Program-made: the position numbers and the translations under genes
Assembly: GCA_045546155.1 (NCBI GenBank)
Contig: JAZQCG010000003.1
Span: forward strand, 4,727 to 68,726
DNA: 64,000 bases
Origin: Candidatus Enterousia sp.
GTDB taxonomy: Bacteria; Pseudomonadota; Alphaproteobacteria; Rs-D84
Direction of reading: 5' to 3'
Part shown: positions 31,620 through 47,600 of the stretch, one piece after another
How positions within the stretch are numbered: position 1 is the stretch's first letter
Layout: each line of letters starts with the position of its first letter
The notes under the pieces: generated by a model
Seen by the model: only the letters and a program-made list of their open reading frames with translations
What the model was told of the DNA's origin: nothing
The model's database searches: none

Positions 31620-31673
31620 TGTTGGGATTTTAATTATTGACCGGGTGTGTGAAAATTTACTAAACTGCATTTG

Positions 31674-34282: not shown

Positions 34283-34305
34283 TGTGTTTGTAGTAGGGGG
34301 GACAA

Positions 34306-36012
34306 ATGCCAATATCTGTTTTAATATTTTTAGGTATTTTATTTGTATTGGTTTATTTGTTGCGTCGGGTGCACATTGGTGCGTTGGTTGCATTTTTGTT
34401 TGCTGGTATTTTATCTGGGCCATATGTATTCAATCTTTTTGAATTAAATGAAACGTGGCAGTTTTTGGGCGATATTGGGATTATGTTTTTATGGTTTACA
34501 ATTGGGCTTGAAATCAATATGCGCCGCCTGTGGAATTTACGTCATACGATATTTGGTTTTGGTGCCGCCCAGGTTATGATGGTTGCGATAATGTTATTCC
34601 CATTATTGTTTGGTGTGACAATTTGGTCGATTATGGGATGCGTGATGGTATCGTTGATGCTGGCAATGTCCAGTACGTCGTCTGCGATGGATTTATTAGT
34701 GTCGCGCAATCAATTGAATACCAACATGGGGCGCCAGACTTTTTCAATTTTGTTATTCCAAGATTTGTTGTCAATTCCATTGCTTGCAATGTTGCCGGTT
34801 TTTGCAGGAAAAAGTTTTGACCTGGGGGCCAGTGCAATTGACGTTGCGGTTATATCGGTTGCATTGATAATCAGTGTTGTTGTAATCGGTCGTTTTGTAT
34901 TAAATCCGTTATTGAATTTGGTTTCTAAATTAAAATCAAACGAAGTATTTTTGTTGGCGGTCTTATTAAATATTGTTATTTGGGCTGTGTTGTTGGACAT
35001 AATGGGGTTGCCTGCGGGATTGGGGGCGTTCTTGGCCGGAATGTTAATGTCTGAAACGGTGTATCGTCATCAAATTGATGCCCAAATTGGGCCGTATGCA
35101 ACAATGTTTCTGGGGTTGTTCTTTATCGTACTTGGTATGGGGTTTGATTTACCGATGTTGGGTGAAAATTGGTATATTATCTTGGGCGGCTTAATTGGTT
35201 TAGTTACTTTAAAGTTTGTCGCGATATATATCGTTGCGCGCGTTCGCAACGTCGATATTCCAGATGCTACCATGATTGCATTATTGCTTGCCAACGGTGG
35301 TGAATTTGGCCTGCTGATGCTTCAGACATTAAAAACGTCTGGTATTAATGCGATACCCGCCGCGCACCAAGAAATTTTATCTGCGATAATTGTGTTGTCG
35401 ATTATGATGACGCCTATATTGCTGGCGATATATGATTATTTGCGCCGTACAGGGCGACTAATGACCCAGCGTTTCCCGCGTACATTGGACGATTCTGATA
35501 ATTCTGTTCAGCCCACTGTTATGATTTGCGGATTTGGTCGTGTGGGACAAATTGTTGCCCAAATGCTGGATGCCCAGAATATTTCATATATCGCAATTGA
35601 TATGGATGTTAGCACGATTATGGTCGCGCGTGAGCGTGGATTAAATGTCGTGTATGGCGACACGACAAACGAACGTGTTCTGCGTGAATTTGGATTGCAC
35701 CCACGTAAAATTCGCGCGGTTGTTGTTGCATTGGATAATGCTGGCACTGCACGCAAAGCGGTTCGTGCGATAAAATCTATTGCGCCACGTATGAAAATAT
35801 TTGCACGTGCCCGAAATTTGGCGGATTCCCGTGTGTTATTAAAAGATGGTGTTTTTGCAGCAACCCCTGAAACGATTGAATCCTCCTTCTTCTTGGGGCG
35901 CAGTGTCTTAGATCATTTGGGGGCATCTGATTCAGAAATAACAAAAATGCTGTCTGAAATGCGCGATGATAATTACATGGAACTGGCATCACAAATATCA
36001 GACAAGCAATGA
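34306..36012 (+). CDS. CPA2 cation:proton antiporter with TrkA-N domain (KefB/KefC-like)
   Basis: ILLFQD, LGAFLAG, GGEFG; KTN domain CGFGRVGQ, VYGD. Confidence 0.9.
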   Translation: MPISVLIFLGILFVLVYLLRRVHIGALVAFLFAGILSGPYVFNLFELNETWQFLGDIGIMFLWFTIGLEINMRRLWNLRHTIFGFGAAQVMMVAIMLFPLLFGVTIWSIMGCVMVSLMLAMSSTSSAMDLLVSRNQLNTNMGRQTFSILLFQDLLSIPLLAMLPVFAGKSFDLGASAIDVAVISVALIISVVVIGRFVLNPLLNLVSKLKSNEVFLLAVLLNIVIWAVLLDIMGLPAGLGAFLAGMLMSETVYRHQIDAQIGPYATMFLGLFFIVLGMGFDLPMLGENWYIILGGLIGLVTLKFVAIYIVARVRNVDIPDATMIALLLANGGEFGLLMLQTLKTSGINAIPAAHQEILSAIIVLSIMMTPILLAIYDYLRRTGRLMTQRFPRTLDDSDNSVQPTVMICGFGRVGQIVAQMLDAQNISYIAIDMDVSTIMVARERGLNVVYGDTTNERVLREFGLHPRKIRAVVVALDNAGTARKAVRAIKSIAPRMKIFARARNLADSRVLLKDGVFAATPETIESSFFLGRSVLDHLGASDSEITKMLSEMRDDNYMELASQISDKQ

Positions 36013-36103
36013 TAATCATCCTATAAAAAAGTCCCCATTTGGGGACATTTTATTTGCAATTATATGCTACGATTGCTATATTTCAATGAAACAGGAAAGT
36101 AAT

Positions 36104-36643
36104 ATGAAAAAGATTATCACAATTGTGTCGATTATGTTGGGAATCATTGTCCTGGATGCCATGTCCAAGGGGGCGTTGTTGTATCTTATTACAGGCGGTT
36201 TTCCATTGGTTGGTTCGGCATGGGATTTGGTCCCACATCCGTATTTAATGACGCCTGTGACTGGATTTTTTAACATCGTATTCACATGGAATTTTGGCAC
36301 AGCATTTTCGTTGTTTAATGGACTGGGTGAATATGCGCCAATCGCACTGGTTATTATGACTGGTTTTATTATCGGTGTGATTCTTTATTATTTATTTACC
36401 CGCGCCAAGAATTACGAAGTTGTTCCGTTATCATTAATCGCCGGTGGTGCAATTGGCAATCTGATTGACAGAATCCGTTTCGGCGCGGTGGTTGATTTCC
36501 TGGACTTTCATATTGGCGGGTATCATTGGCCGGCATTTAATGTGGCGGATATCTGTATCGTAGTAGGCGTAGGGCTTTATATTTTAAATTGGTATATCGC
36601 ACGTCGCAAGTGTTTGGAAAATTGTAAAAAGGAATGTAAATAA
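36104..36643 (+). CDS. lspA: Lipoprotein signal peptidase II
   Basis: NFGTAFSL, GGAIGNLIDR, VVDFLD, FNVAD. Confidence 0.95.
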   Translation: MKKIITIVSIMLGIIVLDAMSKGALLYLITGGFPLVGSAWDLVPHPYLMTPVTGFFNIVFTWNFGTAFSLFNGLGEYAPIALVIMTGFIIGVILYYLFTRAKNYEVVPLSLIAGGAIGNLIDRIRFGAVVDFLDFHIGGYHWPAFNVADICIVVGVGLYILNWYIARRKCLENCKKECK

Positions 36644-36645
36644 TC

Positions 36646-38205
36646 ATGGTTCAGTATATGGATAATAATTCTGGGTTTGCCCAGTGGAACGCAAATAAGA
36701 ACGCAACCACCAAAAAATCTCCGTTTGGTGGATTTATGTGGTGGTTTTTAATTTTTGTTGCCGTCTGGTGGCTGTTGGGTTCGTGGATGACACCAAAAAC
36801 AACCAATGTTCCGGTTGAAAACGCGCCTGTTGTTGATTTGTCAAATGTACCAACCACGACAATTGAAAACCAAGATATTTCTGCAACGGTTCAGGGCCTG
36901 CGTATATCAGACATCGCATTAAAAGAATTTAATACTTCATCATCTGATGCATCGCCTGTGACACTGTTAAATACCGATGATGCATACGCAGAATTCGGAT
37001 TAATTGCAAATGGAACAACTGCGCCGACGGCGACAACGGTTTGGAAAACCCAAGACGGTGTATATTCATGGCGCAATTCCGACGGTGTTGAATTTACGCG
37101 TTCGATAACAACTGATAATTATGTAATTATTGTCAATGACACGATAAAGAATAACACATCGCGCGATATATCAATTGCACCGTATGGACGTATTGTACGC
37201 GCAAATGATGCGACAAATTCTGCGGGTGTATCGACGGGTGCAATCGCATATGAAAATAATGATATTGAACGTATTGATTGGCGCAAAATGGACAAGCGTT
37301 CATACGCCTACACAACAACAAATGGCTTTATTGGATTTGCAGACCAATATTGGGAAACGGTGTTGTCGATTGGTGCGCTTGATCAAACAATGACGTTCAA
37401 GAAGTCTGGCGCAAACTATGGCGCAGATGTTGTCGCGGGTGGCATTGCGGTTGCGCCGAACGCAACGGCCAGCATTGCATACCACTTGTACGCCGGTCCC
37501 CTAGAACCAGATGCATTGGCCGGTGCGAATAAATATATTTCTGATATTGACGACACGATTGATTACGGATGGTTTGGATTCTTGGCGCGTCCAATGTTGT
37601 GGATTATTAACACTTTAAATTCATTGGTAATGAATTACGGTGTTGCGATTATTTTGATGACATTGATTTTGCGCATGTTGATGTGGCCATTAACGCGCAA
37701 GTCTTATACCTCAATGATTGCGATGCAGAAAATGCAACCTGAATTACAGCGAATTCAGAAATTGTATGCCAATGATAAAATGCGCCTGCAAATGGAAATG
37801 ATGAAGGTGTACCAGACACACAAGACGTCGCCTATGTCGGGTTGTCTGCCAATGCTAATTCAGATTCCAATTTTCTTTGCATTGTACAAGGCCTTATTGG
37901 TATCCGTACAAATGCGCAGTGCGAATTTCTTGTGGATAAATGATTTAGCGGTAATGGATCCATATTTCATATTGCCAATATTGATGGGCGCGACAATGTG
38001 GCTGCAACAATATCTGCAAAGCGCACAAAATACCAAATCCACGGACAAAAACGATATCGCCGCCCAGACTCAGCGTATGATGCGCTGGATGCCGATATTA
38101 TTCACCGTGATGTTTGCGTGGATGCCGGCTGGCTTGGTTCTGTATTGGACGATGTCGAATATATTTGGAATAATTCAAATGTATATAATCAAGCGCCAAA
38201 AATAA
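36646..38205 (+). CDS. yidC: Membrane protein insertase YidC
   Basis: IDYGWFGF, NYGVAII, GCLPMLIQIPIFFALY, PAGLVLYW. Confidence 0.96.
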   Translation: MVQYMDNNSGFAQWNANKNATTKKSPFGGFMWWFLIFVAVWWLLGSWMTPKTTNVPVENAPVVDLSNVPTTTIENQDISATVQGLRISDIALKEFNTSSSDASPVTLLNTDDAYAEFGLIANGTTAPTATTVWKTQDGVYSWRNSDGVEFTRSITTDNYVIIVNDTIKNNTSRDISIAPYGRIVRANDATNSAGVSTGAIAYENNDIERIDWRKMDKRSYAYTTTNGFIGFADQYWETVLSIGALDQTMTFKKSGANYGADVVAGGIAVAPNATASIAYHLYAGPLEPDALAGANKYISDIDDTIDYGWFGFLARPMLWIINTLNSLVMNYGVAIILMTLILRMLMWPLTRKSYTSMIAMQKMQPELQRIQKLYANDKMRLQMEMMKVYQTHKTSPMSGCLPMLIQIPIFFALYKALLVSVQMRSANFLWINDLAVMDPYFILPILMGATMWLQQYLQSAQNTKSTDKNDIAAQTQRMMRWMPILFTVMFAWMPAGLVLYWTMSNIFGIIQMYIIKRQK

Positions 38206-38230
38206 AATAATCCCGGTTAATCCGGGATTA

Positions 38231-38572
38231 TTAATTATGTAAATTTTTATAAAGAGCATATGGTGTTTGAATCCGCCAATTATGTAATCCGATTGCTTGT
38301 TTGGCCAAATCAACACAACTTCGGGCATGATATGGATTAAAATCATGGGCCAGTGTTGCGCCATCAATATATATAAATCGCCATCCATGCGTTTTTAGAA
38401 TTTTAATATCCCGCATCCGTAGGGCTATTTTTTCAATGCGTCCTGGTGCAATAAATTGAAACATAATCAGTTTATTTCCACGCGGCACGATTGGTGCCAC
38501 GTGTTTAAATTTCCGACATAATATATTCGGAATAAATTTAGACGTCTTATTCGAAAAAGCAATGATAATCAT
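38231..38572 (-). CDS. Hypothetical protein (phage/GTA-associated-like)
   Basis: 113-aa ORF with AAGGA RBS; FKHV...SCVDLAKQAIG...TPYALYK pattern. Confidence 0.65.
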   Translation of the reverse strand: MIIIAFSNKTSKFIPNILCRKFKHVAPIVPRGNKLIMFQFIAPGRIEKIALRMRDIKILKTHGWRFIYIDGATLAHDFNPYHARSCVDLAKQAIGLHNWRIQTPYALYKNLHN

Positions 38573-38595
38573 AATATTTTCCTTATCTTGTTTTA

Positions 38596-38937
38596 CTATT
38601 CAATCCATCCACGTTCAATTGCTGCGTTTTGTATTACATCCATTGCGCGTCGCCATTGATCTGCGGCACGATTTTCGCGCCAGATATATTGATGTGGCGC
38701 GCGACGTTTGTCACCGAATTCCTTCATAATTTGCAACTGTTCATCGGTCAATTTCCCAGACAGATATAATTTTGTAATCAGTGTTTCTACATCAACCAGT
38801 TCGCACACGCGTCGCATCCCGCGCATCCCGTTGTGTACAAAACCATTACGCACAGATTTTGAATATAAAAACCAGAACCACAGTTGCTCTGAATTTTGAA
38901 ATTTTTCTGTATTATAAATCGCTTGTTGTTGTTCCAT
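38596..38937 (-). CDS. Conserved alphaproteobacterial hypothetical protein
   Basis: AAGGAG RBS; F.NSEQLWFWF..C..VD...KLY..GKL..FG...AP...W pattern recalled from Rhodospirillales hypotheticals. Confidence 0.75.
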   Translation of the reverse strand: MEQQQAIYNTEKFQNSEQLWFWFLYSKSVRNGFVHNGMRGMRRVCELVDVETLITKLYLSGKLTDEQLQIMKEFGDKRRAPHQYIWRENRAADQWRRAMDVIQNAAIERGWIE

Positions 38938-39223
38938 ATCTACATCTCCTTTATTTTGTTTTGCGACCTGTTAAGATTTATATCCTAAAAAACCGATTGT
39001 GATAAATACTACAACCGACGGTTGATTGTTGAATCGGATTTTCGATTCGAAAATTGAATCTTGTGATTTGTATTCGAATCGAATTTTTATCCATGTTCAT
39101 CGTCATGTGTTCCCGTTTGATTACAAAAAAATAAGCGTCCAAAAATTGGACGCACAAACACGCATATAAAAACAGTCATATTGTTATTCCGTTTATTTTA
39201 TTATAGTTCCCTTGGTTAAAAAA

Positions 39224-39249
39224 TAAACCCACCATATGGTGGGTTTTAT
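39224..39249 (-). terminator. Terminator of the virB8-10 operon
   Basis: AAACCCACC-atat-GGTGGGTTT. Confidence 0.7.
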
Positions 39250-39264
39250 TAAATTATTTCCCGG

Positions 39265-41610
39265 TTACAGTATTGGCGGGAAACAATCGCCCCCTGATGA
39301 TGGGCAACAATTGAATCCTTGTTCACCCATATCGGTGTAAACTTCCCCCGCACAGCAACCATTTGCATCTGGCAGGCTACCATCTTCACATGTTAATACT
39401 GTTGCTGCTGCATCAATAACAGCTGCTTCCTCCTTCTTTTCAAATGGGTTTTCGATATAACCATCTTCGTCATATGTTAATCCCAAGACTTGTTCATTGT
39501 ATGCCTGGTCTCCCTGCTGATATGTATCTTGGAATTTTTTCTGTTGGCTTTGGAACAGCGCATCCTGCTTTGCCATGTTTATCGCTTTATACTGGCTTGA
39601 TTGGCAATAAAATACCAGTGTTCTGTAATCGTATGTATCGCAACCTTCGCCTTTTTGATTGACACTGCCGTCATCGTTGCAGCATTGTGATATTGCGAAC
39701 GAGCGCACCTGACCTTCCCAGCTTCCATCATTTGCACGTGTTATAGAGTGCGTCCAACTGTCGTTGCGTTTTTTGTCTCCATAGCCCAAAGAGCACTTTT
39801 TTTCACCGTTTTTTTCACCACATGATGCGATCAAATCCACTGGTGAATAAACAGTGATACGTGTACCAGCGGCAATTGTAAATGGCGGAACGGTGTTGTC
39901 CATCATATCAACCAATAATTTCTGTGCCACTTGATTCCATGCGGTAATAATTTCATTTTTTGCCAATTCAGATGAACGTACCGTGCCCGATTGCACAACA
40001 GTGTTGTTATCTAAATCAATCTGATTAACAAATGCGTCACTGACCGGTGCGATTAAATTCACCGCCGCTGGCACAATCGCAGTCAGCATTGGCATAAAGA
40101 ATTGTTCAATATAATCTGTGCTGCCATATCCTGGGATGCCTGAGCGTCCCTGTGCATCACCAGAAAACGGTATTTGTTGGTCAAAATTAAATTCAACGCC
40201 ATTTGGTAAAATAAATTGATACCATTTTATATCCATACGTCCAACTGATGTATATGGCCCCGGTAAATCCCCATCAACATATCCCATCAGCAGTGTTCCC
40301 GTCGGTATAATTACGTTTCGACCATTATCAGAATAAACATTGCGGTCAACCGTTGCCCGCACCGGCAGTCGGTTATTTTTCAATGCTTCTGGATCGGCAC
40401 GTACATCCGATACAATTGTTGCCGGAATAGGTTTAAATTGACGTAAAACAAATTGCCTGTCATATGGTTTTGATGATTTTACGGATGTGCCAGAAGACTC
40501 ATATTCAACATCCGGCGCTGGTGCATCATGCAGCCCGCCCATTGCTGCAATCCCATCCGCGCCCAAGCGGCCCATACCACTGACCGCGCGGTTTTCTGTA
40601 TCAATCATGGATTCACGTGCAGCTGATTTTACTGGATTCGACAACTCTGGGATTACACCATTGGTAATAATCGCATATCCAATATGATCCGCATCACTGC
40701 CGATTTTCTTAGACTTGTCTTTTATATCTGTGATTATGCCGTTGTCTGGATTATATGTGCCGGTCGGTTTTTCACATTTTTTATCTGAAAATGGGTGAAA
40801 ATAATATGCGCCACCCTTTGGCTTAATCCATCCAATCTGACGACCCGAATTATCATATCCCGGAAACGCAAAGTCTGAACATGCTTCTGGTGGTGCGACA
40901 TATTCATCTGATTTGCGTTCATTAACTGTGTCAAATGGCTTGGTCGTTGCGATTAATTCGACCGCCGGCTCTTCTTCGGTTTCTTCTTCTATTTCAATTT
41001 CTTCTTCTTCCTCAGGTTCTGCTTCTTTGACCACAATCTTTTCAACTGGTTTTTCAATAACCTTTTCTACAACTTTTTCGATAACAACTGGGGCAGGGGC
41101 CTCAACCACTGGGGCTGTTGCACCCAAAACCATCAAAAATTTATCAGTTTTTTTCATTTCGTCTGGTTCGTTAATCCCGCGCCAGTCAATAAATAATGGA
41201 ACGCCACGCGCCGTCATTGCGGTTGTTGGTGTATAATCAATTGTTATTGTGCATGCAAACCCAGAATTGATTTCGCCCGCATTTTCGCATCCTTGATTAA
41301 CAATCAATCCATTTATATTCTGTTCACGTCTGATTTTCAGAACCTTGGCCGGCCCAGTCGCCGACACCTTAATAACCTGGTTTTTTGTTTGTCCAACTGT
41401 GACATCTGCCCAATCCAAGGATTCTGGTGTTATTACCAGATTCACCGGTGTTGAATCAACTTCTTCTATTTTTTTATCAGATTTCCCCCCAGTCAGCAAC
41501 AGGGTCAGCAAAATCAGCACCATTACAAATGCCACCGCCAGCAATAACCACTGAACACGTTTTGGTGTAGCCGCACGCCAATCAGAAAAAGTCTTTTTTA
41601 TTTTATTCAT
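39265..41610 (-). CDS. virB10: VirB10/TrbI-like T4SS core protein with extra Ig-like and Cys-rich domains
   Basis: TrbI core IPATIVSD, ATVDRNVYSDNGRNVIIPTGTLLMG, DAQGRSGIPG, IAAGTRITV; N-terminal TM. Confidence 0.8.
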   Translation of the reverse strand: MNKIKKTFSDWRAATPKRVQWLLLAVAFVMVLILLTLLLTGGKSDKKIEEVDSTPVNLVITPESLDWADVTVGQTKNQVIKVSATGPAKVLKIRREQNINGLIVNQGCENAGEINSGFACTITIDYTPTTAMTARGVPLFIDWRGINEPDEMKKTDKFLMVLGATAPVVEAPAPVVIEKVVEKVIEKPVEKIVVKEAEPEEEEEIEIEEETEEEPAVELIATTKPFDTVNERKSDEYVAPPEACSDFAFPGYDNSGRQIGWIKPKGGAYYFHPFSDKKCEKPTGTYNPDNGIITDIKDKSKKIGSDADHIGYAIITNGVIPELSNPVKSAARESMIDTENRAVSGMGRLGADGIAAMGGLHDAPAPDVEYESSGTSVKSSKPYDRQFVLRQFKPIPATIVSDVRADPEALKNNRLPVRATVDRNVYSDNGRNVIIPTGTLLMGYVDGDLPGPYTSVGRMDIKWYQFILPNGVEFNFDQQIPFSGDAQGRSGIPGYGSTDYIEQFFMPMLTAIVPAAVNLIAPVSDAFVNQIDLDNNTVVQSGTVRSSELAKNEIITAWNQVAQKLLVDMMDNTVPPFTIAAGTRITVYSPVDLIASCGEKNGEKKCSLGYGDKKRNDSWTHSITRANDGSWEGQVRSFAISQCCNDDGSVNQKGEGCDTYDYRTLVFYCQSSQYKAINMAKQDALFQSQQKKFQDTYQQGDQAYNEQVLGLTYDEDGYIENPFEKKEEAAVIDAAATVLTCEDGSLPDANGCCAGEVYTDMGEQGFNCCPSSGGDCFPPIL

Positions 41611-41635
41611 AATTTTCCACACCCGATTAAGTCAA

Positions 41636-43159
41636 TTATTGAATACGAACGACACTGCAACTTGCCCCGCTGAATTTCAGCAACTGGTCACACAGTTTTT
41701 GTGCTGTATCAATATCGCTTAATGGCCCAATACGCAGACGATACAAGCGTGCCGATGTTGATTCTGCGCCCAATTCGCCAACGCCTTGTTCATCAACCGC
41801 AAAGAATACCTTGTCTTTGTATGGTGTTAACAGACCTGCGCCATCATCCCCACTGAACTTAGCCAACAAACCTGTCCAATAATCATTAAGCGCTTTAACA
41901 GATGGGTCAGCCTTTAATTCAACGGCAACACCACTTTGATTGCTGGTGATTAATGGGATGTTAGTCTGTGGCAAATATGCGCCCGCTGTATCGCGCACTG
42001 TTGGAACCATCGTCATTGCGGTGGATGCGCCCGTCATGCCACCGGTCGTAAAGCCAGCCGGCATATAATACCCCGCACCCGTTGCCGCCGCAACCGAACC
42101 GTTACCAACAAATGTTGGTGTTGTTGTATAGTTTCCAACGTTCATGTTCATTGCCGCCATATCCATGTTGTATGCGATATTGTTCAATGACTGACCGCTC
42201 ATCATGCTTTGTGCAACGTTGGCTTCTGCTAATGCCATAACAGATGCTGTGTCTGCAATCAAGAACGGTTTTTCGCGCTTTTTGATGCAAACAATACGTT
42301 GCCCACTGCGCAGAACCATATCTCCGACCGCCTCTACAATCAACAGTCGTCCATCTTCGCCATCGGTGCGGAATCCAACCGGGGATTCACCGCCTTCGAC
42401 CAATAACGAAACAACCGGACGTTGGGTCATAGAAATAACCTTGTCACCAAAGTCAATGTATGTAAATATACGATCACGCCATACGCGTTCTGGGGCGATA
42501 ACATAGTCATCTGGATTTGGAACAAAAATATCTAAATCAAAACGGAATTCAGATGGATCAATTTTCATAGATTTAATCCAACCGTAATCTTCGCCATCAA
42601 CCCCAACGGTATTGGATGTCGTTGCAGGCTTGTTGAAAATAGATTTCATCCCCGCACCCGATGTTGTTGATGCGGCTACGCTTGGCAAAACTGCATTTCC
42701 ATCTAAAACAACTTCTACCTGGGAATATGTAATTTCAGACGAATTTGTTGGTTCTGCGCGCAAATAGAATATATATTTGTTGCCAGATTTTCCGTCGACA
42801 ATCATGTTGGTGTCGCCACCCATTGTTTCGCCTTTTGGGGTCAAGAATATCGTGTTCGCACCTTTTTGTGCATCAACTTCAAACAGACCACTGTCGCCGA
42901 CGATAATATCTGCAATTTGTTCGCCGTTTGGCAAAGATACCATTGTCACCATGCCATTGCGTAATTTTAATGGCAACGTACTGCCCTTGGACCAGGATAA
43001 TTGTGCATAGCCTGGCTTAATACTGCCTGCGGTCATGTTTGCATTTGGATTGTCCCATGCACCTTGGTATGCCACGGCCGCTCTAACGTTGGCCAGCCCC
43101 AGTACCGCCCCAATACATAACAGTGATACGTTTAATCTAATTGCTTTTGCAAATGTCAT
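41636..43159 (-). CDS. virB9: VirB9/TrbG/CagX-like T4SS protein with C-terminal SPOR domain
   Basis: Signal peptide; MVTMVSLPNGEQI, TNMIV..G.KY.FYL, IAPERVWRDRIFTYIDF, LRSGQRIVCI; C-terminal LYRLRIGPL...AQKLCDQL. Confidence 0.8.
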   Translation of the reverse strand: MTFAKAIRLNVSLLCIGAVLGLANVRAAVAYQGAWDNPNANMTAGSIKPGYAQLSWSKGSTLPLKLRNGMVTMVSLPNGEQIADIIVGDSGLFEVDAQKGANTIFLTPKGETMGGDTNMIVDGKSGNKYIFYLRAEPTNSSEITYSQVEVVLDGNAVLPSVAASTTSGAGMKSIFNKPATTSNTVGVDGEDYGWIKSMKIDPSEFRFDLDIFVPNPDDYVIAPERVWRDRIFTYIDFGDKVISMTQRPVVSLLVEGGESPVGFRTDGEDGRLLIVEAVGDMVLRSGQRIVCIKKREKPFLIADTASVMALAEANVAQSMMSGQSLNNIAYNMDMAAMNMNVGNYTTTPTFVGNGSVAAATGAGYYMPAGFTTGGMTGASTAMTMVPTVRDTAGAYLPQTNIPLITSNQSGVAVELKADPSVKALNDYWTGLLAKFSGDDGAGLLTPYKDKVFFAVDEQGVGELGAESTSARLYRLRIGPLSDIDTAQKLCDQLLKFSGASCSVVRIQ

Positions 43160-43186
43160 ACCAAAATCCTTCCGTCTTCGTTTTAT

Positions 43187-43864
43187 TTAAAATCTGTTCA
43201 GCGGATCTGTTTTATCAGATTTATCGCCATCCACAGATTCAACAGCATATCGCACAACCTTTATCCCCAATGGATTGTTCAGGCGATCAACCCATTGTGT
43301 GGCTGTGTCTATGTCTGAGCCTAATTCTAATACGATTGTATAATCTTTTGCGGCCACCTGTCCATTACTATTTTCACAAAAATAGCGGAATTTTACAGCG
43401 TACATGTTTTCACCACGTGGTGTAATCGCCCCAGATTCAAATTCAACCGGACATTTTAGTTCAAAACCCGGAATTTCGTTCATAAGCGCCGTCCACATGC
43501 GGGTTTGGGCAAAATCATTGTATACTGCATCGCTTGACCATGCGCGCACCGCTGCGGTTGGATCATTTGTCCACTTTTTGCGCATTGCGTTTATGTTTGA
43601 TGAAATTTCGTTTCGTGCTTTGATGTATTCTTTGATAAAGGCGCGCTTATACCGGTCCAGATTTTCACTTGTTGGCGCCATGTCTTGCAAGGTAACTTCC
43701 AATTGGTGGCTTGGTTGTGTCATCAAAAAGAACACCTGGGGACGGTTTAATGGGAACATCTTATATAATGTTAATCCCATAACAGCCAACACAACCACCG
43801 CGGTTGCGAATACAAACGTTAACATCCTGGACAACAAAATTGGCGGTTCTACGCGGTTTTGCAC
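43187..43864 (-). CDS. virB8: VirB8-like T4SS inner-membrane protein
   Basis: Single N-terminal TM; FIKEYIKARNE, VRAWSSDAVY, RLNNPLGIKVVRY (NPLG motif). Confidence 0.8.
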   Translation of the reverse strand: MQNRVEPPILLSRMLTFVFATAVVVLAVMGLTLYKMFPLNRPQVFFLMTQPSHQLEVTLQDMAPTSENLDRYKRAFIKEYIKARNEISSNINAMRKKWTNDPTAAVRAWSSDAVYNDFAQTRMWTALMNEIPGFELKCPVEFESGAITPRGENMYAVKFRYFCENSNGQVAAKDYTIVLELGSDIDTATQWVDRLNNPLGIKVVRYAVESVDGDKSDKTDPLNRF

Positions 43865-44100
43865 TAAATTCTCCCCCTTGATTAAGTGGATTGTAGAAAA
43901 AAATACGTCGCATATGCAAGAAAAAATTGCAAATACAAAATCATATTTTAAAAAATGTGTCGCAGAAACGGATTTTTGTCTTGCGTGGTCTGGTAAAAAA
44001 TAATATAATATTTCCGCTTGATTTTTTGTATCTGTGTGCTATCCTGTCGCAGACTGTGGACATGTGTGCGGTACAAAAAGACAGATTTTTTGCAGTTCCT

Positions 44101-44174
44101 AGGGGCATAGTTCAACGGTAGAATATCGGTCTCCAAAACCGCGGATGAGGGTTCGATTCCTTCTGCCCCTGCCA
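44101..44174 (+). tRNA. trnW: tRNA-Trp(CCA)
   Basis: Cloverleaf AGGGGCA...CGGT-CTCCAAA-ACCG...GGTTCGATTCC...TGCCCCTGCCA upstream of secE. Confidence 0.97.
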
Positions 44175-44215
44175 TGAATATAGTCATTAATTAAACAAGT
44201 AAGTGGACGTGTTTT

Positions 44216-44395
44216 ATGAAGAAAATACTGGAATATATCAAATCTGTACGTCGCGAGTGGTTCAAGATTGTATGGCCATCGCGTGATACTGTAACGCGTG
44301 CGACAATTATGATTTTAGTGTTTTCGGCCATTGCGGCGCTGTTCTTCTTTGCGATAGACAGTGTGCTGGGGGCGATTGTTAATTGGATTTTCTAA
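44216..44395 (+). CDS. secE: Preprotein translocase subunit SecE
   Basis: Not in the ORF track; translates MKKILEYIKSVRREWFKIVWPSRDTVTRATIMILVFSAIAALFFFAIDSVLGAIVNWIF; lies between trnW and nusG. Confidence 0.93.
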   Translation: MKKILEYIKSVRREWFKIVWPSRDTVTRATIMILVFSAIAALFFFAIDSVLGAIVNWIF

Positions 44396-44421
44396 AACAG
44401 AATTGACAAAGGGTGCATACG

Positions 44422-44955
44422 ATGGAAGAAAAAATGCAGTGGTTCGTTGTAAATGTTCATACAAGTTGCGAAGACAAGGTTGCGCGTGGTCTGCGTGAAC
44501 AGATTGATAAACGTCGCTTAAATGCGTATTTTGGTGAAATTTTAGTTCCAACCCGCGAAGTTACAGAAATCAAGGGTGGTAAACGTGTTAAAACGGAACG
44601 TAAATTCTTTCCGGGTTATATCGTTGTTCAAATGGTTATGAATAACGAAACCTTTACGCTTGTAAAACAGATTCCCCAGGTTGTTATGTTCCTGGGCGCG
44701 AAACAAAAACCAATCGCAGTCAGCGAAGAAGAAGCACGTCGCCTGATGAAACAGGTCGAAGAAGGCGCAGTCGCAATGGATGATATTGAATATTCTGTTG
44801 GTCAAGAAGTGCATGTTATTGATGGTCCATTTGCGGGCTTTAACGGTATTGCATCCGAAGTTGACAATGTAAAACAGAAAATGACTGTGACGGTTCTGGT
44901 ATTTGGTCGTGAAACCAGCATGGATCTGGAATTTAGTCAGGTTGAAAAGGTGTAG
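44422..44955 (+). CDS. nusG: Transcription termination/antitermination factor NusG
   Basis: WFVVNVH..EDKV, KFFPGYIVV, KOW motif VIDGPFAGFNG, VFGRET. Confidence 0.97.
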   Translation: MEEKMQWFVVNVHTSCEDKVARGLREQIDKRRLNAYFGEILVPTREVTEIKGGKRVKTERKFFPGYIVVQMVMNNETFTLVKQIPQVVMFLGAKQKPIAVSEEEARRLMKQVEEGAVAMDDIEYSVGQEVHVIDGPFAGFNGIASEVDNVKQKMTVTVLVFGRETSMDLEFSQVEKV

Positions 44956-44961
44956 TGTAGA

Positions 44962-45129
44962 ATGAAGAAAACACTGGGCGTCACTGGCCGACCGCTTAGT
45001 CTCGAAGACTCAAAAAAACTAGAACGGGTTCTAACGGGATTGTGTGATATGCGAAAAGAGTGGGAACAAGAAGCCAGGTTGCACCAGGCGCAAGCCCTAG
45101 AAAGTGCCAAGAAGATAATTCTTCGCTAG
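44962..45129 (+). CDS. Small hypothetical protein (55 aa)
   Basis: Open frame MKKTLGVTGRPLSLEDSKKLERVLTGLCDMRKEWEQEARLHQAQALESAKKIILR directly after nusG. Confidence 0.45.
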   Translation: MKKTLGVTGRPLSLEDSKKLERVLTGLCDMRKEWEQEARLHQAQALESAKKIILR

Positions 45130-45239
45130 GCGCAAAAGATTTTTGTGGTTTTCTGAAAAATATTCAGTAAAATCACACCAAACCGTGGTAGATACGCCAT
45201 ATCGTACCACGACACTAACCAAAAAAATGGAGTGAACAA

Positions 45240-45671
45240 ATGGCAAAGAAAGAAGTTAAGGGATTGGTCAAATTGGTCGTCCCTGCAAAACAGGCAAATC
45301 CTGCGCCTCCAATCGGTCCGGCGTTGGGTGCTGCTGGTGTTAACATCGCAGAATTCTGCAAACAGTTTAACGATAAAACATCTGATAAAGAACCGGGTAT
45401 GCCGATTCCATGTATTATAACTGTTTACACAGATGGCAGTTTCCAATTCATTATGAAATTGCCACCTGTATCGTACTATATTAAAAAAGCATTGAAATTG
45501 AAAATCGGTTCTCATAAACCTGGTCGCGACTTTGTTGGTACATTGTCCAAGGCCCAGATTAAAGAAATTGCCGAAGCAAAAATGCCTGACTTGAATTGCT
45601 CTTCCATTGAATCTGCAATGAATATCGTTGCGGGTCAGTGCCGTTCTATGGGCGTAAAGGTAGAGGAGTAA
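45240..45671 (+). CDS. rplK: 50S ribosomal protein L11
   Basis: [20 protein letters not shown]. Confidence 0.98.
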
Positions 45672-45675
45672 TATC

Positions 45676-46350
45676 ATGAAACTGACAAAGAAACAGCAGA
45701 CTTGGAAAAATTTGGACACAGACAAAGTGTATGCTTTATCTGAAGCAATTGAAACATTGCGCGAATATGCGTCCAAGAAATTTGACGAAACATTGGAAAT
45801 TGCTATCCGTTTGGGTATCGACATAACCAAAGCAGACCAGAATATCCGTGGCATGTTGTCATTGCCAAATGGTACTGGTAAAACGGTTCGTGTTGCGGTA
45901 TTTACAATTAATGCCCAGGACGAAGCTAAAAAAGCTGGTGCTGATGTTGTTGGTGGCGAAGAATTGATTGATGCTGTTGCAGCGGGCAATATTAATTTTG
46001 ACCGTGTTATTGCAACACCTGATATGATGCCAAAAATGTCAAAGATTGCACGCGTATTAGGGCCAAAGGGTTTGATGCCGAATCCAAAATTGGGTACAGT
46101 TACAAACAACGTTGCAGAAGCTGTTAAAACAGCCAAAGCAGGTCAGATTGAATACCGTGCCGAAAAGAAGGGTATCATCCACGCTGGTATTGGTAAAATG
46201 TCATTTACAACCGATGCATTGGTTGAAAATGCAAATGCTTTGATTGATCAATTGAAAAAGATCAAACCAGCATCCGCTAAGGGTCAGTATATCTTGGGTA
46301 TTTCCGTTGCGACAACCCAGGGCCCAGGTCTGAAAGTAGATGCAAAATAA
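45676..46350 (+). CDS. rplA: 50S ribosomal protein L1
   Basis: KFDETLE, LPNGTGK, LGPKGLMPNPKLGTVT. Confidence 0.98.
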   Translation: MKLTKKQQTWKNLDTDKVYALSEAIETLREYASKKFDETLEIAIRLGIDITKADQNIRGMLSLPNGTGKTVRVAVFTINAQDEAKKAGADVVGGEELIDAVAAGNINFDRVIATPDMMPKMSKIARVLGPKGLMPNPKLGTVTNNVAEAVKTAKAGQIEYRAEKKGIIHAGIGKMSFTTDALVENANALIDQLKKIKPASAKGQYILGISVATTQGPGLKVDAK

Positions 46351-46393
46351 TTAAATGCGACGTGTGTGAAAACATGCGTCGCATAAACAGATT

Positions 46394-46448
46394 TCTGTCC
46401 AAGACTGATGGTGTGACGAAAACGTTGCTTAATTGCCATCATAGACAA
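46394..46448 (+). promoter_or_regulatory. Ribosomal protein L10 leader
   Basis: CTGTCCAAGACTGATGG...CTTAATTGCCATCATAGAC in the rplA-rplJ spacer. Confidence 0.7.
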
Positions 46449-46537
46449 AGAACAAATTCTTTGGGGCAGGAAACAAAGCCCCACCCGGGGCAACCCGGAT
46501 GGAAAGTTAACAAAACAGAAGCTTGAAGGAAATAAAG

Positions 46538-47017
46538 ATGAAACGCGAAGAAAAATCAGATTTGATTTCAGCGTTACAGTCGTCCTTGAAAGAAGCGAAC
46601 GGTGTTTTCGTTGTTGAAAACCACGGCTTGACTGTACAGGAATTCGAAGGTCTGCGTAATGAATTACGCCCATTGGTTTCTGTATTCAAAGTTGTTAAAA
46701 ACCGTTTGATGAAATTGGCGTTAAAAGACACTGATTTCGAACCTGTATCCGATATGCTGAAACGTCCAACCGCGGTTGCAGTTGCAACAGACGGCTTGGC
46801 GGTTACCAAAGTATTGGCAAAATTTGCGGAATCACATCCAAATTTGACAATCGTTGGTGGTAAAATGGATGCGGACGTTCTGGACTGTAACGGCGTATTA
46901 CAATTATCCAAGCTTCCTTCCCTGTTGGAAATCCGTGGCACTATTGCGCGTATCTTGGTCGAACCTGCATCGCGCATTGCACGTGTATCCGCAGAGTATG
47001 GAAAAAAAGAACAATAA
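46538..47017 (+). CDS. rplJ: 50S ribosomal protein L10
   Basis: GLTVQEFEGLRNELR, FKVVKNRL, LSKLPSL. Confidence 0.96.
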   Translation: MKREEKSDLISALQSSLKEANGVFVVENHGLTVQEFEGLRNELRPLVSVFKVVKNRLMKLALKDTDFEPVSDMLKRPTAVAVATDGLAVTKVLAKFAESHPNLTIVGGKMDADVLDCNGVLQLSKLPSLLEIRGTIARILVEPASRIARVSAEYGKKEQ

Positions 47018-47065
47018 AATCAGAATACTTTATTCTGACCTAAAACAAAACTTAGGAGTAAAAAA

Positions 47066-47431
47066 ATGGCAGACATTCAGAAATTAGTTGAAGAATTGTC
47101 AAAATTGACCGTTTTGGAAGCAGTTGAACTGTCCAAAGCATTAGAAGAAACATGGGGCGTAAGCGCTGCTGCTGCTGTTGCAGTTGCTGCTGGTCCTGTT
47201 GCAGCTGCTGCAGAAGAAAAGAGCGAATTTGATGTTGTATTGGCAGAAGTCGGTGCAAACAAATTGGCTGTTATCAAAGCTGTAAAAGACATCACTGGTT
47301 TAGGTTTGGGCGAAGCAAAAGCTTTGGTTGAATCTGCACCAAAGGCAGTTAAAGAAGGCGTAGCAAAAGATGAAGCTGAAAAAATGAAAGCTACAATCGA
47401 AGCCGCCGGTGCCAAAGTTGAATTGAAATAA
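47066..47431 (+). CDS. rplL: 50S ribosomal protein L7/L12
   Basis: [32 protein letters not shown]. Confidence 0.98.
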
Positions 47432-47600
47432 TTCAACCCAGAACCGACAAGGTTCAAAAAATCCGCCGTATGAAAATATGGCAAAAACGCCGCCCGTGTG
47501 GGATGAAAATCCCATACGGGCACAAAGGCGTAAAATACAGACAATACGATAATATCGAAAATCGTTTGCACAAAACGCACAGAAAAAAGGACTAAAACCC

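What the first reader, a model, noticed from the sequence alone, without database searches (positions are those of the whole stretch)
39265..43864. Stand-alone, chromosomally domesticated virB8-virB9-virB10 T4SS core
Seen: a three-gene operon with its own terminator, divergent from trnW-secE, with no ATPase, pilin, relaxase or integrase nearby. All three proteins are very divergent and two carry extra domains. comEC lies about 11 kb away. Established: split T4SS clusters occur in Rickettsiales (rvh), and Helicobacter ComB8-10 works with ComEC in DNA uptake. Inference: an uncharacterised lineage-specific T4SS for effector delivery or host/prey contact, or ComB-like competence.
Basis: partly seen in the sequence, partly recalled or inferred. 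Interest (0 to 1): 0.75.

Follow-up and report, generated by a model that had tools for sequence, protein, structure and literature searches.

The report
Dispersed type IV secretion system, Enterousia
The three genes are the envelope core of a type IV secretion machine whose other parts lie scattered around the tiny chromosome of an uncultured gut bacterium, and it is probably how that bacterium acts on the cells it depends on.

Summary
The virB8-virB9-virB10 operon is real, at the stated coordinates, with its own terminator and divergent from trnW-secE. It is not stand-alone. The same 1.0 Mb genome (genus Candidatus Enterousia by its nearest named relatives) has virB3-virB4, virD4, virB11, a second virB8, a VirB2-like pilin and a possible VirB6-like paralogue family at six other places. 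VirB9, VirB4, VirD4 and VirB11 were found in 37-41 of 41 genomes from six families of the order. The operon sits in the same slot in 80 of 80 Enterousia loci and is under purifying selection. No relaxase was found with three Pfam models.

On a VirB4 tree the system falls in a deep clade with Erythrobacter and Paracaedimonas plasmid T4SSs, apart from genomes with the Rickettsiales-type (rvh-like) arrangement (AU p 4.6e-70). So it is an rvh-like archipelago of separate origin. The SPOR-like VirB9 tail and the Ig-like VirB10 N-domain are traits of that clade. A six-cysteine C-terminal module on VirB10, shared with two other envelope proteins, was found only in this genus.

Best reading: a domesticated, VirD4-coupled, contact-dependent export machine. 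ComB-like uptake is unlikely. Substrates and target cell are unknown.

The parts
43187..43864 (-). virB8 (225 aa, GTG start; bitopic, VirB8 domain aa 12-208)
   Evidence: ORF, translation. Pfam PF04335 8e-15, 55.7 bits against a cut-off of 23.2. Intact in 80 of 80 Enterousia loci. dN/dS 0.07-0.10 against the closest four.
41636..43159 (-). virB9 (507 aa; signal peptide, VirB9/CagX domain, low-complexity linker, SPOR-like C-terminal domain)
   Evidence: Pfam PF03524 4.1e-21. Found in 40 of 41 genomes of the order. Intact in 80 of 80 loci. dN/dS 0.03-0.045 against the closest five.
42278..43003 (-). VirB9/CagX domain (aa 53-294)
   Evidence: Pfam. 37% identical (E 3.6e-50) to VirB9 of the Erythrobacter aureus plasmid.
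41639..41914 (-). SPOR-like C-terminal domain of VirB9 (about aa 416-507; two conserved Cys)
   Evidence: Pfam SPOR 2.5e-4, 21.7 bits against a cut-off of 21, partial. SPOR was hit in 10 of 91 long VirB9 representatives and in G040 (8.1e-6). The same tail motif is in more distant representatives (A3) and in the Erythrobacter plasmid VirB9. A profile of the domain hit no solved SPOR chain. Median dN/dS 0.077.
39265..41622 (-). virB10 (785 aa; N-terminal TM helix, Ig-like domain, Pro/Glu-rich linker, TrbI/VirB10 domain, Cys-rich extension)
   Evidence: Pfam PF03743 3.6e-17. NCBIfam VirB10 1.7e-16, far below the equivalog cut-off. Intact ORF in 77 of 80 loci. dN/dS 0.10-0.12.
41200..41433 (-). 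Ig-like domain of VirB10 (aa 64-141; two invariant Cys)
   Evidence: ASH 5.1e-4 and choice-of-anchor D 5.1e-5, both below cut-off. C112 and C124 are invariant in 7 of 7 aligned VirB10s, including the Erythrobacter plasmid one (A2). Median dN/dS 0.079.
39844..40428 (-). TrbI/VirB10 barrel domain (aa 399-593)
   Evidence: Pfam. Weak matches to solved ComB10, TrwE and CagY chains.
39268..39822 (-). Cys-rich C-terminal extension of VirB10 (aa 601-785; 12 Cys)
   Evidence: No Pfam match at E up to 1. Absent from the VirB10 of two other families, where the protein ends just after the TrbI domain. 8-12 Cys in the last 190 aa of 77 orthologues. Median dN/dS 0.127.
39268..39393 (-). terminal six-Cys module (last ~42 aa; ends GGDCFPP plus two residues, then stop)
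   Evidence: The module recurs at the extreme C-terminus of a 697-aa bitopic protein (C2:161264-163357) and twice in a 218-aa secreted protein (C5:98557-99213). Found in 25 of 25 Enterousia genomes and 0 of 16 genomes of other families with this query.
39225..39246 (-). intrinsic-terminator-like hairpin after virB10
   Evidence: 9-bp stem with 5 G-C pairs, then a T-run. The scan found 10 such sites against 6.3 +/- 2.8 in shuffles, so the scan alone is weak; the position right after the stop is what counts.
43865..44100 (.). divergent intergenic region between virB8 and tRNA-Trp (presumed promoter region)
   Evidence: Positions. Promoter-like matches are no more frequent than in shuffles (17 against 17.8), so no promoter is shown.

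Best explanation
The operon encodes the periplasmic and outer-membrane scaffold (VirB8, VirB9, VirB10) of one complete, chromosomally dispersed, vertically inherited VirB/D4-type (MPF-T-like) type IV secretion system of Candidatus Enterousia, a gut alphaproteobacterium with a genome of about 1 Mb.

Shown: the remaining parts are encoded at other places. These are virB3-virB4 plus a conserved 206-aa HExxH ORF, virD4 alone, virB11 alone, a second virB8 after bamA, and a VirB2-like pilin beside a lipoprotein. A family of four polytopic paralogues gives a moderate profile signal to VirB6. The set is conserved across the order, the ORFs are intact and under purifying selection, and the three ATPases keep their Walker A motifs.

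Inferred: VirB9 and VirB10 form the outer-membrane core. The SPOR-like tail of VirB9 ties that core to peptidoglycan. VirB10 spans the periplasm from its N-terminal helix. VirB4 and VirB11 power assembly, and VirD4 recruits cytoplasmic substrates. Because VirD4 is universally kept and no relaxase was found, the most likely job is contact-dependent export of proteins onto or into a partner cell, eukaryotic or bacterial, on which this metabolically poor organism depends.

The system descends from the same deep T4SS clade as some alphaproteobacterial plasmid conjugation systems. It reached an rvh-like 'archipelago' layout independently of Rickettsiales.

My odds: about 0.85 that this is part of one dispersed working T4SS, and about 0.5 that its job is protein export to a partner cell. 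The single confidence figure of 0.6 is for the statement as a whole.
For: Domains.

Other loci in the same genome:
- VirB4, PF03135 over cut-off and TIGR00929 4.5e-110.
- VirB3, 1.8e-6.
- VirD4, 1e-54.
- VirB11, TIGR02788 4.5e-43.
- Second VirB8, 8.9e-9, over cut-off.
- VirB2-like pilin with a signal peptide and two hydrophobic helices, PF04956 3.8e-4, below cut-off. It is in 24 of 25 Enterousia genomes.
- VirB6 candidates: hhalign probability 56.8%, E 1.1e-4 over 111 columns against a profile of six TrbL-positive proteins. Four other polytopic families of the same genome gave P 0.2-0.52.

Conservation in 41 genomes of six families:
- VirB9 in 40 of 41.
- VirB4 in 38 of 41, and 30 of 30 high-quality genomes.
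- VirD4 in 41 of 41.
- VirB11 orthologue in 37 of 41.

Genus level: same synteny in 80 of 80 loci, intact ORFs in 80, 80 and 77 of 80, dN/dS 0.03-0.12.

Other points:
- Walker A is present in VirB4, VirB11 and VirD4.
- No relaxase with PF03432, PF03389 or PF08751.
- All five comparable proteins are 29-38% identical to one contiguous Erythrobacter plasmid cluster.
- VirB4 tree: a 13-row clade with 100% SH-aLRT excludes the genomes with the rvh-like arrangement, the Agrobacterium VirB4 and the IncN TraB. Forcing this order together with the rvh-like genomes costs 409.9 lnL, p-AU 4.6e-70.
- Contigs of RNA libraries from two studies cover the operon.
- The one open paper on this order infers dependence on other cells and does not mention secretion (PMC12306168, passages).
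Against: - No substrate or effector was identified, and the partner organism is unknown.
- VirB6 is only a moderate profile hint. PF04610 found nothing in the genome, and single-sequence and PDB searches were blank.
- The VirB2 match is below Pfam's cut-off.
- VirB5 and VirB1 were not sought across the genome. Lipoproteins beside virB2 and virB11 are the only VirB7 candidates.
- The closest named relatives are conjugation systems with a MobA/MobL relaxase. Only three relaxase families were searched, in a genome that is 97% complete, so DNA transfer is not excluded.
- The RNA evidence is weak. These are contigs, not reads, and the whole 14 kb stretch is covered about evenly, as DNA carry-over would also give.
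- dS is near saturation (1.0-1.5), so the dN/dS values are rough.
- No structure could be predicted.
- The AU test group was named after the tree had been seen.
Confidence: 0.6

Rival explanations
1. ComB-like competence: the T4SS pulls DNA into the periplasm and hands it to ComEC, as in Helicobacter pylori.
For: comEC is present 11.3 kb away. Among solved chains the best match of VirB10 is ComB10, but only at E 5.4e-5. The NCBIfam ComB10 model matches at 3e-12. A VirB11 that lies apart from the other genes also occurs in ComB (PMC13395361, passages).
Against: - VirD4 is present in 41 of 41 genomes. The comB operons encode no VirD4, which that paper calls expected for an uptake machine.
- The ComB10 score is 46 bits against a cut-off of 300, and lower than the score for the generic VirB10 model.
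- comEC is separated from the operon by eight housekeeping genes.
- The flanks of virB8-10 differ between families, so there is no conserved linkage to comEC.
- The genome has a separate pilus-type cluster (T2SSE, T2SSF, PilO-like), the usual partner of ComEC (my own knowledge).
Confidence: 0.08
2. A conjugative or DNA-release system: a chromosomally fixed mating-pair apparatus that still moves DNA.
For: The nearest named relatives are plasmid T4SSs. VirB4 matches the Erythrobacter, Microvirga and Sphingosinicella plasmids at E about 1e-124 to 1e-129, and the Paracaedimonas MOBQ plasmids at about 1e-81. The Erythrobacter cluster sits beside a MobA/MobL gene. VirD4 and VirB11 are both kept.
Against: - No relaxase with three Pfam models.
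- The genes lie at seven separate places among housekeeping genes.
- Presence is near-universal rather than patchy.
- The slot is fixed in 80 of 80 loci.
- G+C matches the genome.
Confidence: 0.08
3. A bacteria-killing or prey-directed T4SS, working like the Xanthomonadales-type systems: the exported proteins are cell-wall toxins aimed at neighbouring gut bacteria.
For: About 2 kb from virB11 lies a 408-aa protein with Tlde1-like and YkuD L,D-transpeptidase matches (4.6e-9, 1.9e-7) and a weak MuF-like N-domain, followed by a small ORF. The organism lives in a dense bacterial community and lacks many pathways (PMC12306168). This rival is a sub-case of the best explanation with a bacterial target.
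Against: The L,D-transpeptidase-like protein may be a housekeeping enzyme or phage-derived. I did not test whether it is linked to virB11 in relatives. No VirD4-interaction domain was sought. The VirB4 clade is not the one that holds the Agrobacterium or IncN types, and its relation to the Xanthomonas type was not tested.
Confidence: 0.15
4. An adhesion or pilus device without substrate transfer, or a decaying remnant.
For: No substrate is known, and the pilin and VirB10 tail evolve fast. A lineage-specific Cys-rich module could serve attachment.
Against: VirD4, the substrate receptor, is kept in 41 of 41 genomes with its Walker A and B motifs intact. ORFs are intact in 77-80 of 80 loci and dN/dS is 0.03-0.12, which argues against decay in genomes this small.
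Confidence: 0.1

Closest known systems
rvh (Rickettsiales vir homolog) T4SS
   Same: Both are chromosomal VirB/D4-type systems broken into islets in a reduced genome. Both are vertically inherited, have a duplicated virB8 and no relaxase, and may have several VirB6-like paralogues in tandem. The rvh features come from the abstract of PMC2653234: five islets, duplicated virB4, virB8 and virB9, five VirB6 proteins, no virB5.
   Different: - The lineage differs. Genomes with the rvh-like arrangement (virB3-virB4 followed by three TrbL genes, and two VirB4 copies) fall in another VirB4 clade. A joint clade is rejected.
- VirB4 scores 198 bits (genome search; 221.5 bits for the protein itself) on model NF010473, against a cut-off of 1050 and about 1200 for those genomes.
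- Here virB4 and virB9 are single.
- virB11 and virD4 are detached from virB8-10.
- VirB9 has a SPOR-like tail, and VirB10 has an Ig-like domain and a Cys module.
Plasmid T4SS of Erythrobacter aureus (NZ_CP031358), with those of Microvirga sp. VF16 and Sphingosinicella sp.
   Same: These are the closest named relatives. Identity to the Erythrobacter proteins: VirB4 32%, VirB9 37%, VirB10 29%, VirB11 38%, VirD4 32%. They are in the same VirB4 clade. They share the SPOR-like VirB9 tail and the VirB10 Ig-like domain with its two Cys. PF04610 found no VirB6 in this genome. In the plasmid, the ORF in the VirB6 position gave no Pfam match and has no membrane helix.
   Different: The plasmid cluster is contiguous (virB2-3-4-5 ... 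8-9-10-11-D4), sits beside a MobA/MobL relaxase, and has a VirB5. The Enterousia genes are scattered, no relaxase was found with three models and VirB5 was not sought, virB8 is duplicated, and VirB10 carries the Cys-rich tail.
ComB DNA-uptake T4SS of Helicobacter pylori
   Same: Both have VirB8, VirB9 and VirB10 homologues in a chromosomal operon with other parts elsewhere. Both have ComEC in the genome.
   Different: The comB operons encode no VirD4 or VirB5 (PMC13395361), whereas here VirD4 is universal. The ComB10 equivalog cut-off is missed by a wide margin.
Agrobacterium VirB/D4 and IncN (pKM101-type) archetypes
   Same: The same parts list and domain families.
   Different: They fall in a separate VirB4 clade. 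VirB4 identity is about 24-25%. Every NCBIfam equivalog cut-off is missed. The extra domains are not part of the archetype as I recall it.

Membership tests
VirB/D4-type (MPF-T-like) T4SS | VirB4 ATPase | tested here: met
   PF03135 over cut-off. TIGR00929 4.5e-110, though below its subfamily cut-off. Walker A and B motifs present.
VirB/D4-type (MPF-T-like) T4SS | VirB8, VirB9 and VirB10 core | tested here: met
   All three are over Pfam's gathering scores.
VirB/D4-type (MPF-T-like) T4SS | VirB11 and VirD4 ATPases | tested here: met
   VirB11: TIGR02788 is the best model, 4.5e-43. VirD4: PF02534 1e-54. Walker A present in both.
VirB/D4-type (MPF-T-like) T4SS | VirB6/TrbL polytopic channel protein | tested here: inconclusive
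   PF04610 found nothing in the genome, and there were no NCBIfam hits. A four-member paralogue family gives hhalign probability 56.8%, E 1.1e-4, against P 0.2-0.52 for four control families.
VirB/D4-type (MPF-T-like) T4SS | VirB2 pilin and VirB3 | tested here: inconclusive
   VirB3 is over cut-off at 28.6 bits. The VirB2 candidate scores 19-20 bits against a cut-off of 27.9, but has pilin-like topology.
VirB/D4-type (MPF-T-like) T4SS | VirB1, VirB5, VirB7 accessory parts | not tested
   No genome-wide search was run for PF07996 or for a lytic transglycosylase. Neighbouring ORFs gave no such hit. VirB7 proteins are too short for these models.
rvh (Rickettsiales vir homolog) | Membership of the rvh clade (VirB4) | tested here: not met
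   Tree. AU test p 4.6e-70. NF010473 scores 198 bits (genome search; 221.5 bits for the protein) against a cut-off of 1050.
rvh (Rickettsiales vir homolog) | Islet layout with duplicated virB4, virB8, virB9 and multiplied virB6 | tested here: inconclusive
   The islets are there and virB8 is duplicated. VirB4 and VirB9 are single. The VirB6-like family is uncertain.
ComB competence T4SS | No VirD4 coupling protein; ComB10 equivalog | tested here: not met
   VirD4 in 41 of 41 genomes. NF038092 scores 46.4 bits against a cut-off of 300.
Conjugative plasmid or ICE mating apparatus | Relaxase, contiguous cluster, patchy distribution | tested here: not met
   Three relaxase models found nothing; other classes were not searched. 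The genes are scattered. Presence is near-universal. Integrases were not searched.
SPOR peptidoglycan-binding domain (VirB9 tail) | Match to PF05036 at the gathering score; SPOR fold | tested here: inconclusive
   21.7 bits against a cut-off of 21, covering only model positions 39-76. Relatives score up to 27.7 bits. A profile of the domain hit no solved SPOR chain.

The most novel reading that the evidence does not exclude
An entire uncultured order of gut Alphaproteobacteria with genomes of about 1 Mb has independently turned a plasmid-type conjugation machine into an rvh-like chromosomal archipelago. That machine is its main organ for living on other cells. In Enterousia it carries a genus-specific six-cysteine C-terminal module, shared by VirB10, a TonB-like bitopic protein and a small secreted protein. 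Together these would form a new disulfide-rich or metal-binding surface or anchoring structure at the secretion channel, used to hold on to the partner cell.
Probability: 0.3. Interest if true: 0.75.

Novelty: new variant of a known kind. Interest (0 to 1): 0.55.

Why it matters
Enterousia and its order are widespread in the guts of ruminants, horses, birds, mice and people (record titles). They have never been grown, and genome content suggests they depend on other cells (PMC12306168, passages). That paper does not mention secretion. No paper in the library links Enterousia with a secretion system.

A complete, order-wide, selected T4SS gives a concrete and testable handle on how these bacteria interact with a partner. 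The questions that open up are what it exports, into which cell, and whether VirD4-bound proteins reveal the host.

It is also a second, phylogenetically separate case of a T4SS broken into chromosomal islets in a reduced genome, which bears on how such machines are domesticated. Finally, it flags two structural variants (a VirB9 with a SPOR-like tail, a VirB10 with an Ig-like domain) and one lineage-specific Cys module that current T4SS structures do not cover.

Tried and rejected
No fold, fold search or complex prediction was made. I did not use complex prediction, because VirB9-VirB10 is a textbook pair.
- Protein Atlas and earlier findings: both closed.
- VirB6 identification: blank for PF04610, NCBIfam, a PDB profile and single sequences, phmmer against six TrbL-positive proteins and hhalign against the Erythrobacter ORF in the VirB6 position. 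That ORF turned out to have no membrane helices. Only the family-against-family hhalign gave a signal. An earlier run of it included one non-VirB6 protein, a fatty-acid hydroxylase, and is superseded.
- Naming distant VirB9 relatives through cluster look-up: almost no names came back.
- The search for related loci with a broad alignment: failed for lack of a conserved stretch. The narrower one returned only Enterousia, so no named rvh, ComB or Trb sequences entered a tree.
- Promoter scan: no better than shuffles.
- The two 113-aa ORFs after the terminator: no family match and not pilin-like.
- RNA runs X2-X4: they cover only parts of the stretch. I draw nothing from the uncovered parts.
- Two genome-search runs failed on the server and were repeated.


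Full report
**The observation**

Three minus-strand ORFs lie at 43187-43864 (225 aa), 41636-43159 (507 aa) and 39265-41622 (785 aa). They are separated by 27 and 13 nt. Each passes Pfam's gathering score:
- VirB8, 8e-15
- CagX/VirB9, 4.1e-21
- TrbI/VirB10, 3.6e-17

NCBIfam gives the same names but far below every equivalog cut-off. For example, VirB10 scores 60 bits against 220, and ComB10 scores 46 against 300. The best matches to solved chains are only E 5e-5 (ComB10), 3e-4 (Xanthomonas VirB9) and 2e-3 (TrwG). 'Very divergent' is therefore fair.

A hairpin with a T-run follows the virB10 stop at 39246-39225. tRNA-Trp, secE, nusG and rplK-rplA-rplJ-rplL run the other way. comEC is 11.3 kb off, behind pyrG, pyk, a carboxypeptidase, recR, ksgA, a cation antiporter, lspA and yidC. 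The G+C of the operon (0.40-0.44) matches the window and the contigs.

**Not stand-alone**

The window is part of a 1,000,345-bp assembly in 12 contigs, 97% complete. Elsewhere in it I found:

| Part | Place | Evidence |
|---|---|---|
| virB3-virB4, then a 206-aa ORF with a signal peptide and an HExxH motif | C1:20607-23951 | |
| virD4, alone between housekeeping genes | C1:40734-42983 | |
| virB11-type ATPase | C7:71114-72112 |; TIGR02788 is its best model, |
| second VirB8, just after bamA, followed by two secreted ORFs | C9:13708-14400 | Pfam 8.9e-9, over cut-off, |
| 120-aa protein with a signal peptide and two hydrophobic helices, beside a lipoprotein | C10:21637-21999 | matches TrbC/VirB2 below cut-off, |

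The 206-aa ORF lies next to virB3/virB4 in two other families as well. VirB4, VirB11 and VirD4 keep Walker A motifs. Relaxase models PF03432, PF03389 and PF08751 found nothing.

**VirB6**

PF04610 found nothing. Of 47 ORFs with four or more predicted helices, I scanned 41, and nine had no family. Three of these are in tandem at the start of contig C8. A fourth (C3:1590-2912, 1.8 kb before the window) is weakly paralogous to two of them.

A profile of the four candidates against a profile of those six gave hhalign probability 56.8%, E 1.1e-4, over 111 columns in register. Four other polytopic families of the same genome gave P 0.2-0.52. I count this as a moderate hint, not an identification.

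**Who it is, and how conserved**

The 80 best loci in the species collection are gut MAGs titled Candidatus Enterousia or 'Alphaproteobacteria bacterium', with VirB9 71-94% identical (best tblastn segment). They were kept from 570 confirmed stretches among 599 candidates. Two of them are isolates that the paper on reduced gut lineages lists as Enterousia, order Rs-D84 (PMC12306168, passages and Table 1).

In the 80 loci:
- virB8-9-10 is present in 80 of 80.
- nusG is on one side in 75.
- The two small ORFs are on the other side in 71 and 69.
- yidC is present in 54. Shorter patterns appear where the held locus is short of its full flank, which I take to be contig ends.
- The ORFs are intact in 80, 80 and 77 of 80.

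Against the closest relatives, dN/dS is 0.03-0.045 for virB9, 0.07-0.10 for virB8 and 0.10-0.12 for virB10. The accessory domains are as constrained as the core ones. dS is 1.0-1.5, so these figures are rough.

Across 41 genomes of six families and ten genera, all 0.5-1.1 Mb:
- VirB9 in 40
- VirB4 in 38, and 30 of 30 high-quality genomes
- VirD4 in 41
- the VirB11 orthologue in 37; two further genomes matched only the pilus-type ATPase

The flanks of the operon differ between families (ATP synthase; rpsA and lepA; mutS and ruvX). In one family virB11 lies convergent right after virB10. The three genes therefore travel as a unit while the rest has been rearranged.

**Relatives of the machine**

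Against 72,556 plasmids, VirB4 matches three alphaproteobacterial plasmids (Microvirga, Erythrobacter, Sphingosinicella) at E 1e-124 to 1e-129 and 32% identity. Paracaedimonas acanthamoebae plasmids follow at about 1e-81. Ordinary VirB4, TrbE and TraB proteins are at 1e-20 to 1e-45.

The Erythrobacter cluster is contiguous, virB2-3-4-5 ... 8-9-10-11-D4, beside a MobA/MobL gene. All five comparable proteins of this genome find their counterpart there at 29-38% identity.

A VirB4 tree of 37 rows puts this order in a clade with 100% SH-aLRT on a branch of length 1.5. The clade also holds three other small-genome members of the class, one more genome, the Erythrobacter plasmid, the Paracaedimonas plasmid and one further genome. 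It stands apart from the clade that holds the two genomes with the rvh-like arrangement, an Agrobacterium VirB4 and an IncN TraB. Forcing this order and the rvh-like genomes together costs 409.9 log-likelihood units, p-AU 4.6e-70. The group was named after the tree had been seen.

**The extra domains**

The VirB9 tail matches SPOR at the threshold. Relatives score up to 27.7 bits. Of 91 long VirB9 representatives, taken from 483 hits in 1.84 billion proteins, ten have a SPOR match, all among the closest. However, the same tail, with its 'RLR-GP' stretch and two Cys, aligns in more distant representatives and in the Erythrobacter plasmid VirB9. A profile of the tail hit no solved SPOR chain. 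I therefore call it SPOR-like. No paper in the library holds both 'VirB9' and 'SPOR domain'.

The VirB10 Ig-like domain, with two invariant Cys, is also shared with the plasmid protein. Both are traits of the clade, not of domestication.

The Cys-rich tail of VirB10 is different. It is missing in two other families. Its last 42 or so residues form a six-Cys module that ends two residues before the stop. The same module ends a 697-aa bitopic protein with a Pro/Glu-rich linker, and it occurs twice in a 218-aa secreted protein. It was found in 25 of 25 Enterousia genomes, at 2-4 copies each, and in 0 of 16 genomes of other families with this query. It has no Pfam match. The 218-aa protein has 376 relatives; of the best 120 listed, the few that carry a source name are unnamed alphaproteobacterial or bacterial MAG proteins. 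Contigs from two RNA runs carry an in-frame 33-nt insertion in this tail.

**Expression**

Contigs of gut metatranscriptome libraries from two studies lie on the stretch. In one run, contigs 98-99% identical cover all of 34000-48000, the operon included. Contigs cannot show levels, and even cover is also what DNA carry-over gives. This is only a weak hint.

**How it most likely works**

Shown: a near-complete, conserved, selected VirB/D4-type gene set without a detected relaxase.

From established knowledge of such machines:
- VirB7, VirB9 and VirB10 form the outer-membrane core.
- VirB8, VirB6 and VirB3 form the inner-membrane part, with the VirB4 ATPase.
- VirB11 assists.
- VirD4 selects substrates.

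Inferred:
- The SPOR-like tail anchors the core to the cell wall.
- The machine exports proteins on contact into a partner cell.
- That partner supplies what this organism cannot make. Dependence on other cells is proposed in PMC12306168.

The comB operons encode no VirD4 (PMC13395361), and this genome has a separate pilus-type cluster. DNA uptake is therefore the less likely job. Conjugation is not excluded, because only three relaxase classes were searched. A bacterial target is possible: a Tlde1/YkuD-like protein lies near virB11.

**Comparison and verdict**

In layout and probable use this works like rvh, described as five islets with duplicated virB4, virB8 and virB9, five VirB6 proteins and vertical inheritance (abstract of PMC2653234). 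It is not a member of that clade.

It is a new variant of a known kind: a second, independently dispersed T4SS, in a lineage where the one dedicated open paper does not mention secretion and no paper links the genus with a secretion system. The 2023 paper on Enterousia cited there is not in the library and I did not see it. Supplements were not consulted.

Noticed in passing
window 38231-38572 and 38596-38937 (both minus strand): Two 113-aa ORFs lie just after the virB10 terminator on the same strand. They are conserved in 69 and 71 of 80 Enterousia loci. They have no Pfam or NCBIfam match and no membrane helix.
   Followed up: partly
genome contig C1:8568-13210 (outside the window): A pilus-type cluster: T2SSF, a 544-aa T2SSE ATPase, a coiled-coil ORF with a signal peptide, and a PilO-like accessory protein. 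Together with comEC in the window, it is a more usual candidate for DNA uptake than the T4SS.
   Followed up: no
genome contig C7:67860-69086 (outside the window), about 2 kb from virB11: A 408-aa protein with Tlde1-like (4.6e-9) and YkuD L,D-transpeptidase (1.9e-7) matches and a weak MuF/SPP1 gp7-like N-domain, followed by a 105-aa ORF. It could be a cell-wall-targeting effector with its immunity protein, or a housekeeping enzyme.
   Followed up: no
genome contigs C2:161264-163357 and C5:98557-99213: Two further carriers of the six-Cys module. One is a 697-aa bitopic protein with a cytoplasmic coiled coil and a long Pro/Glu/Val-rich periplasmic linker, a TonB- or VirB10-like build. The other is a 218-aa secreted protein with two modules.
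   Followed up: partly
window 39517/39518: Contigs from two RNA-library runs carry an in-frame 33-nt insertion inside the Cys-rich tail of virB10, a strain variant.
   Followed up: no
window 31671-32849: A D-Ala-D-Ala carboxypeptidase with a clear C-terminal SPOR domain (7.6e-8). This shows that bona fide SPOR domains are in use in this genome.
   Followed up: no
L054 18309-19670 (Erythrobacter aureus plasmid): In the closest plasmid cluster, the ORF in the usual VirB6 position is a 453-aa Ala-rich protein with no predicted membrane helix and no Pfam match. The whole clade may have an unusual or displaced VirB6.
   Followed up: partly
L025 7887-13568 (G040) and G026, G031, G039: In one family of the order, virB11 lies convergent immediately after virB10. 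This may be a trace of an ancestral virB8-9-10-11 block.
   Followed up: partly
genome contig C11:42373-43173: A 266-aa polytopic ORF with weak matches to ZorA anti-phage models (1.2e-7, far below cut-off).
   Followed up: no
class-level sample: Many other small alphaproteobacterial genomes (1.1-2.3 Mb; for example families f24, f27, f29, f44, f63, f112) have a VirB4 that matches NF010473 over the same part and at the same level as this genome. Three of them group with this order on the tree, and their VirB9 has the same tail. The dispersed system may be older than the order.
   Followed up: partly
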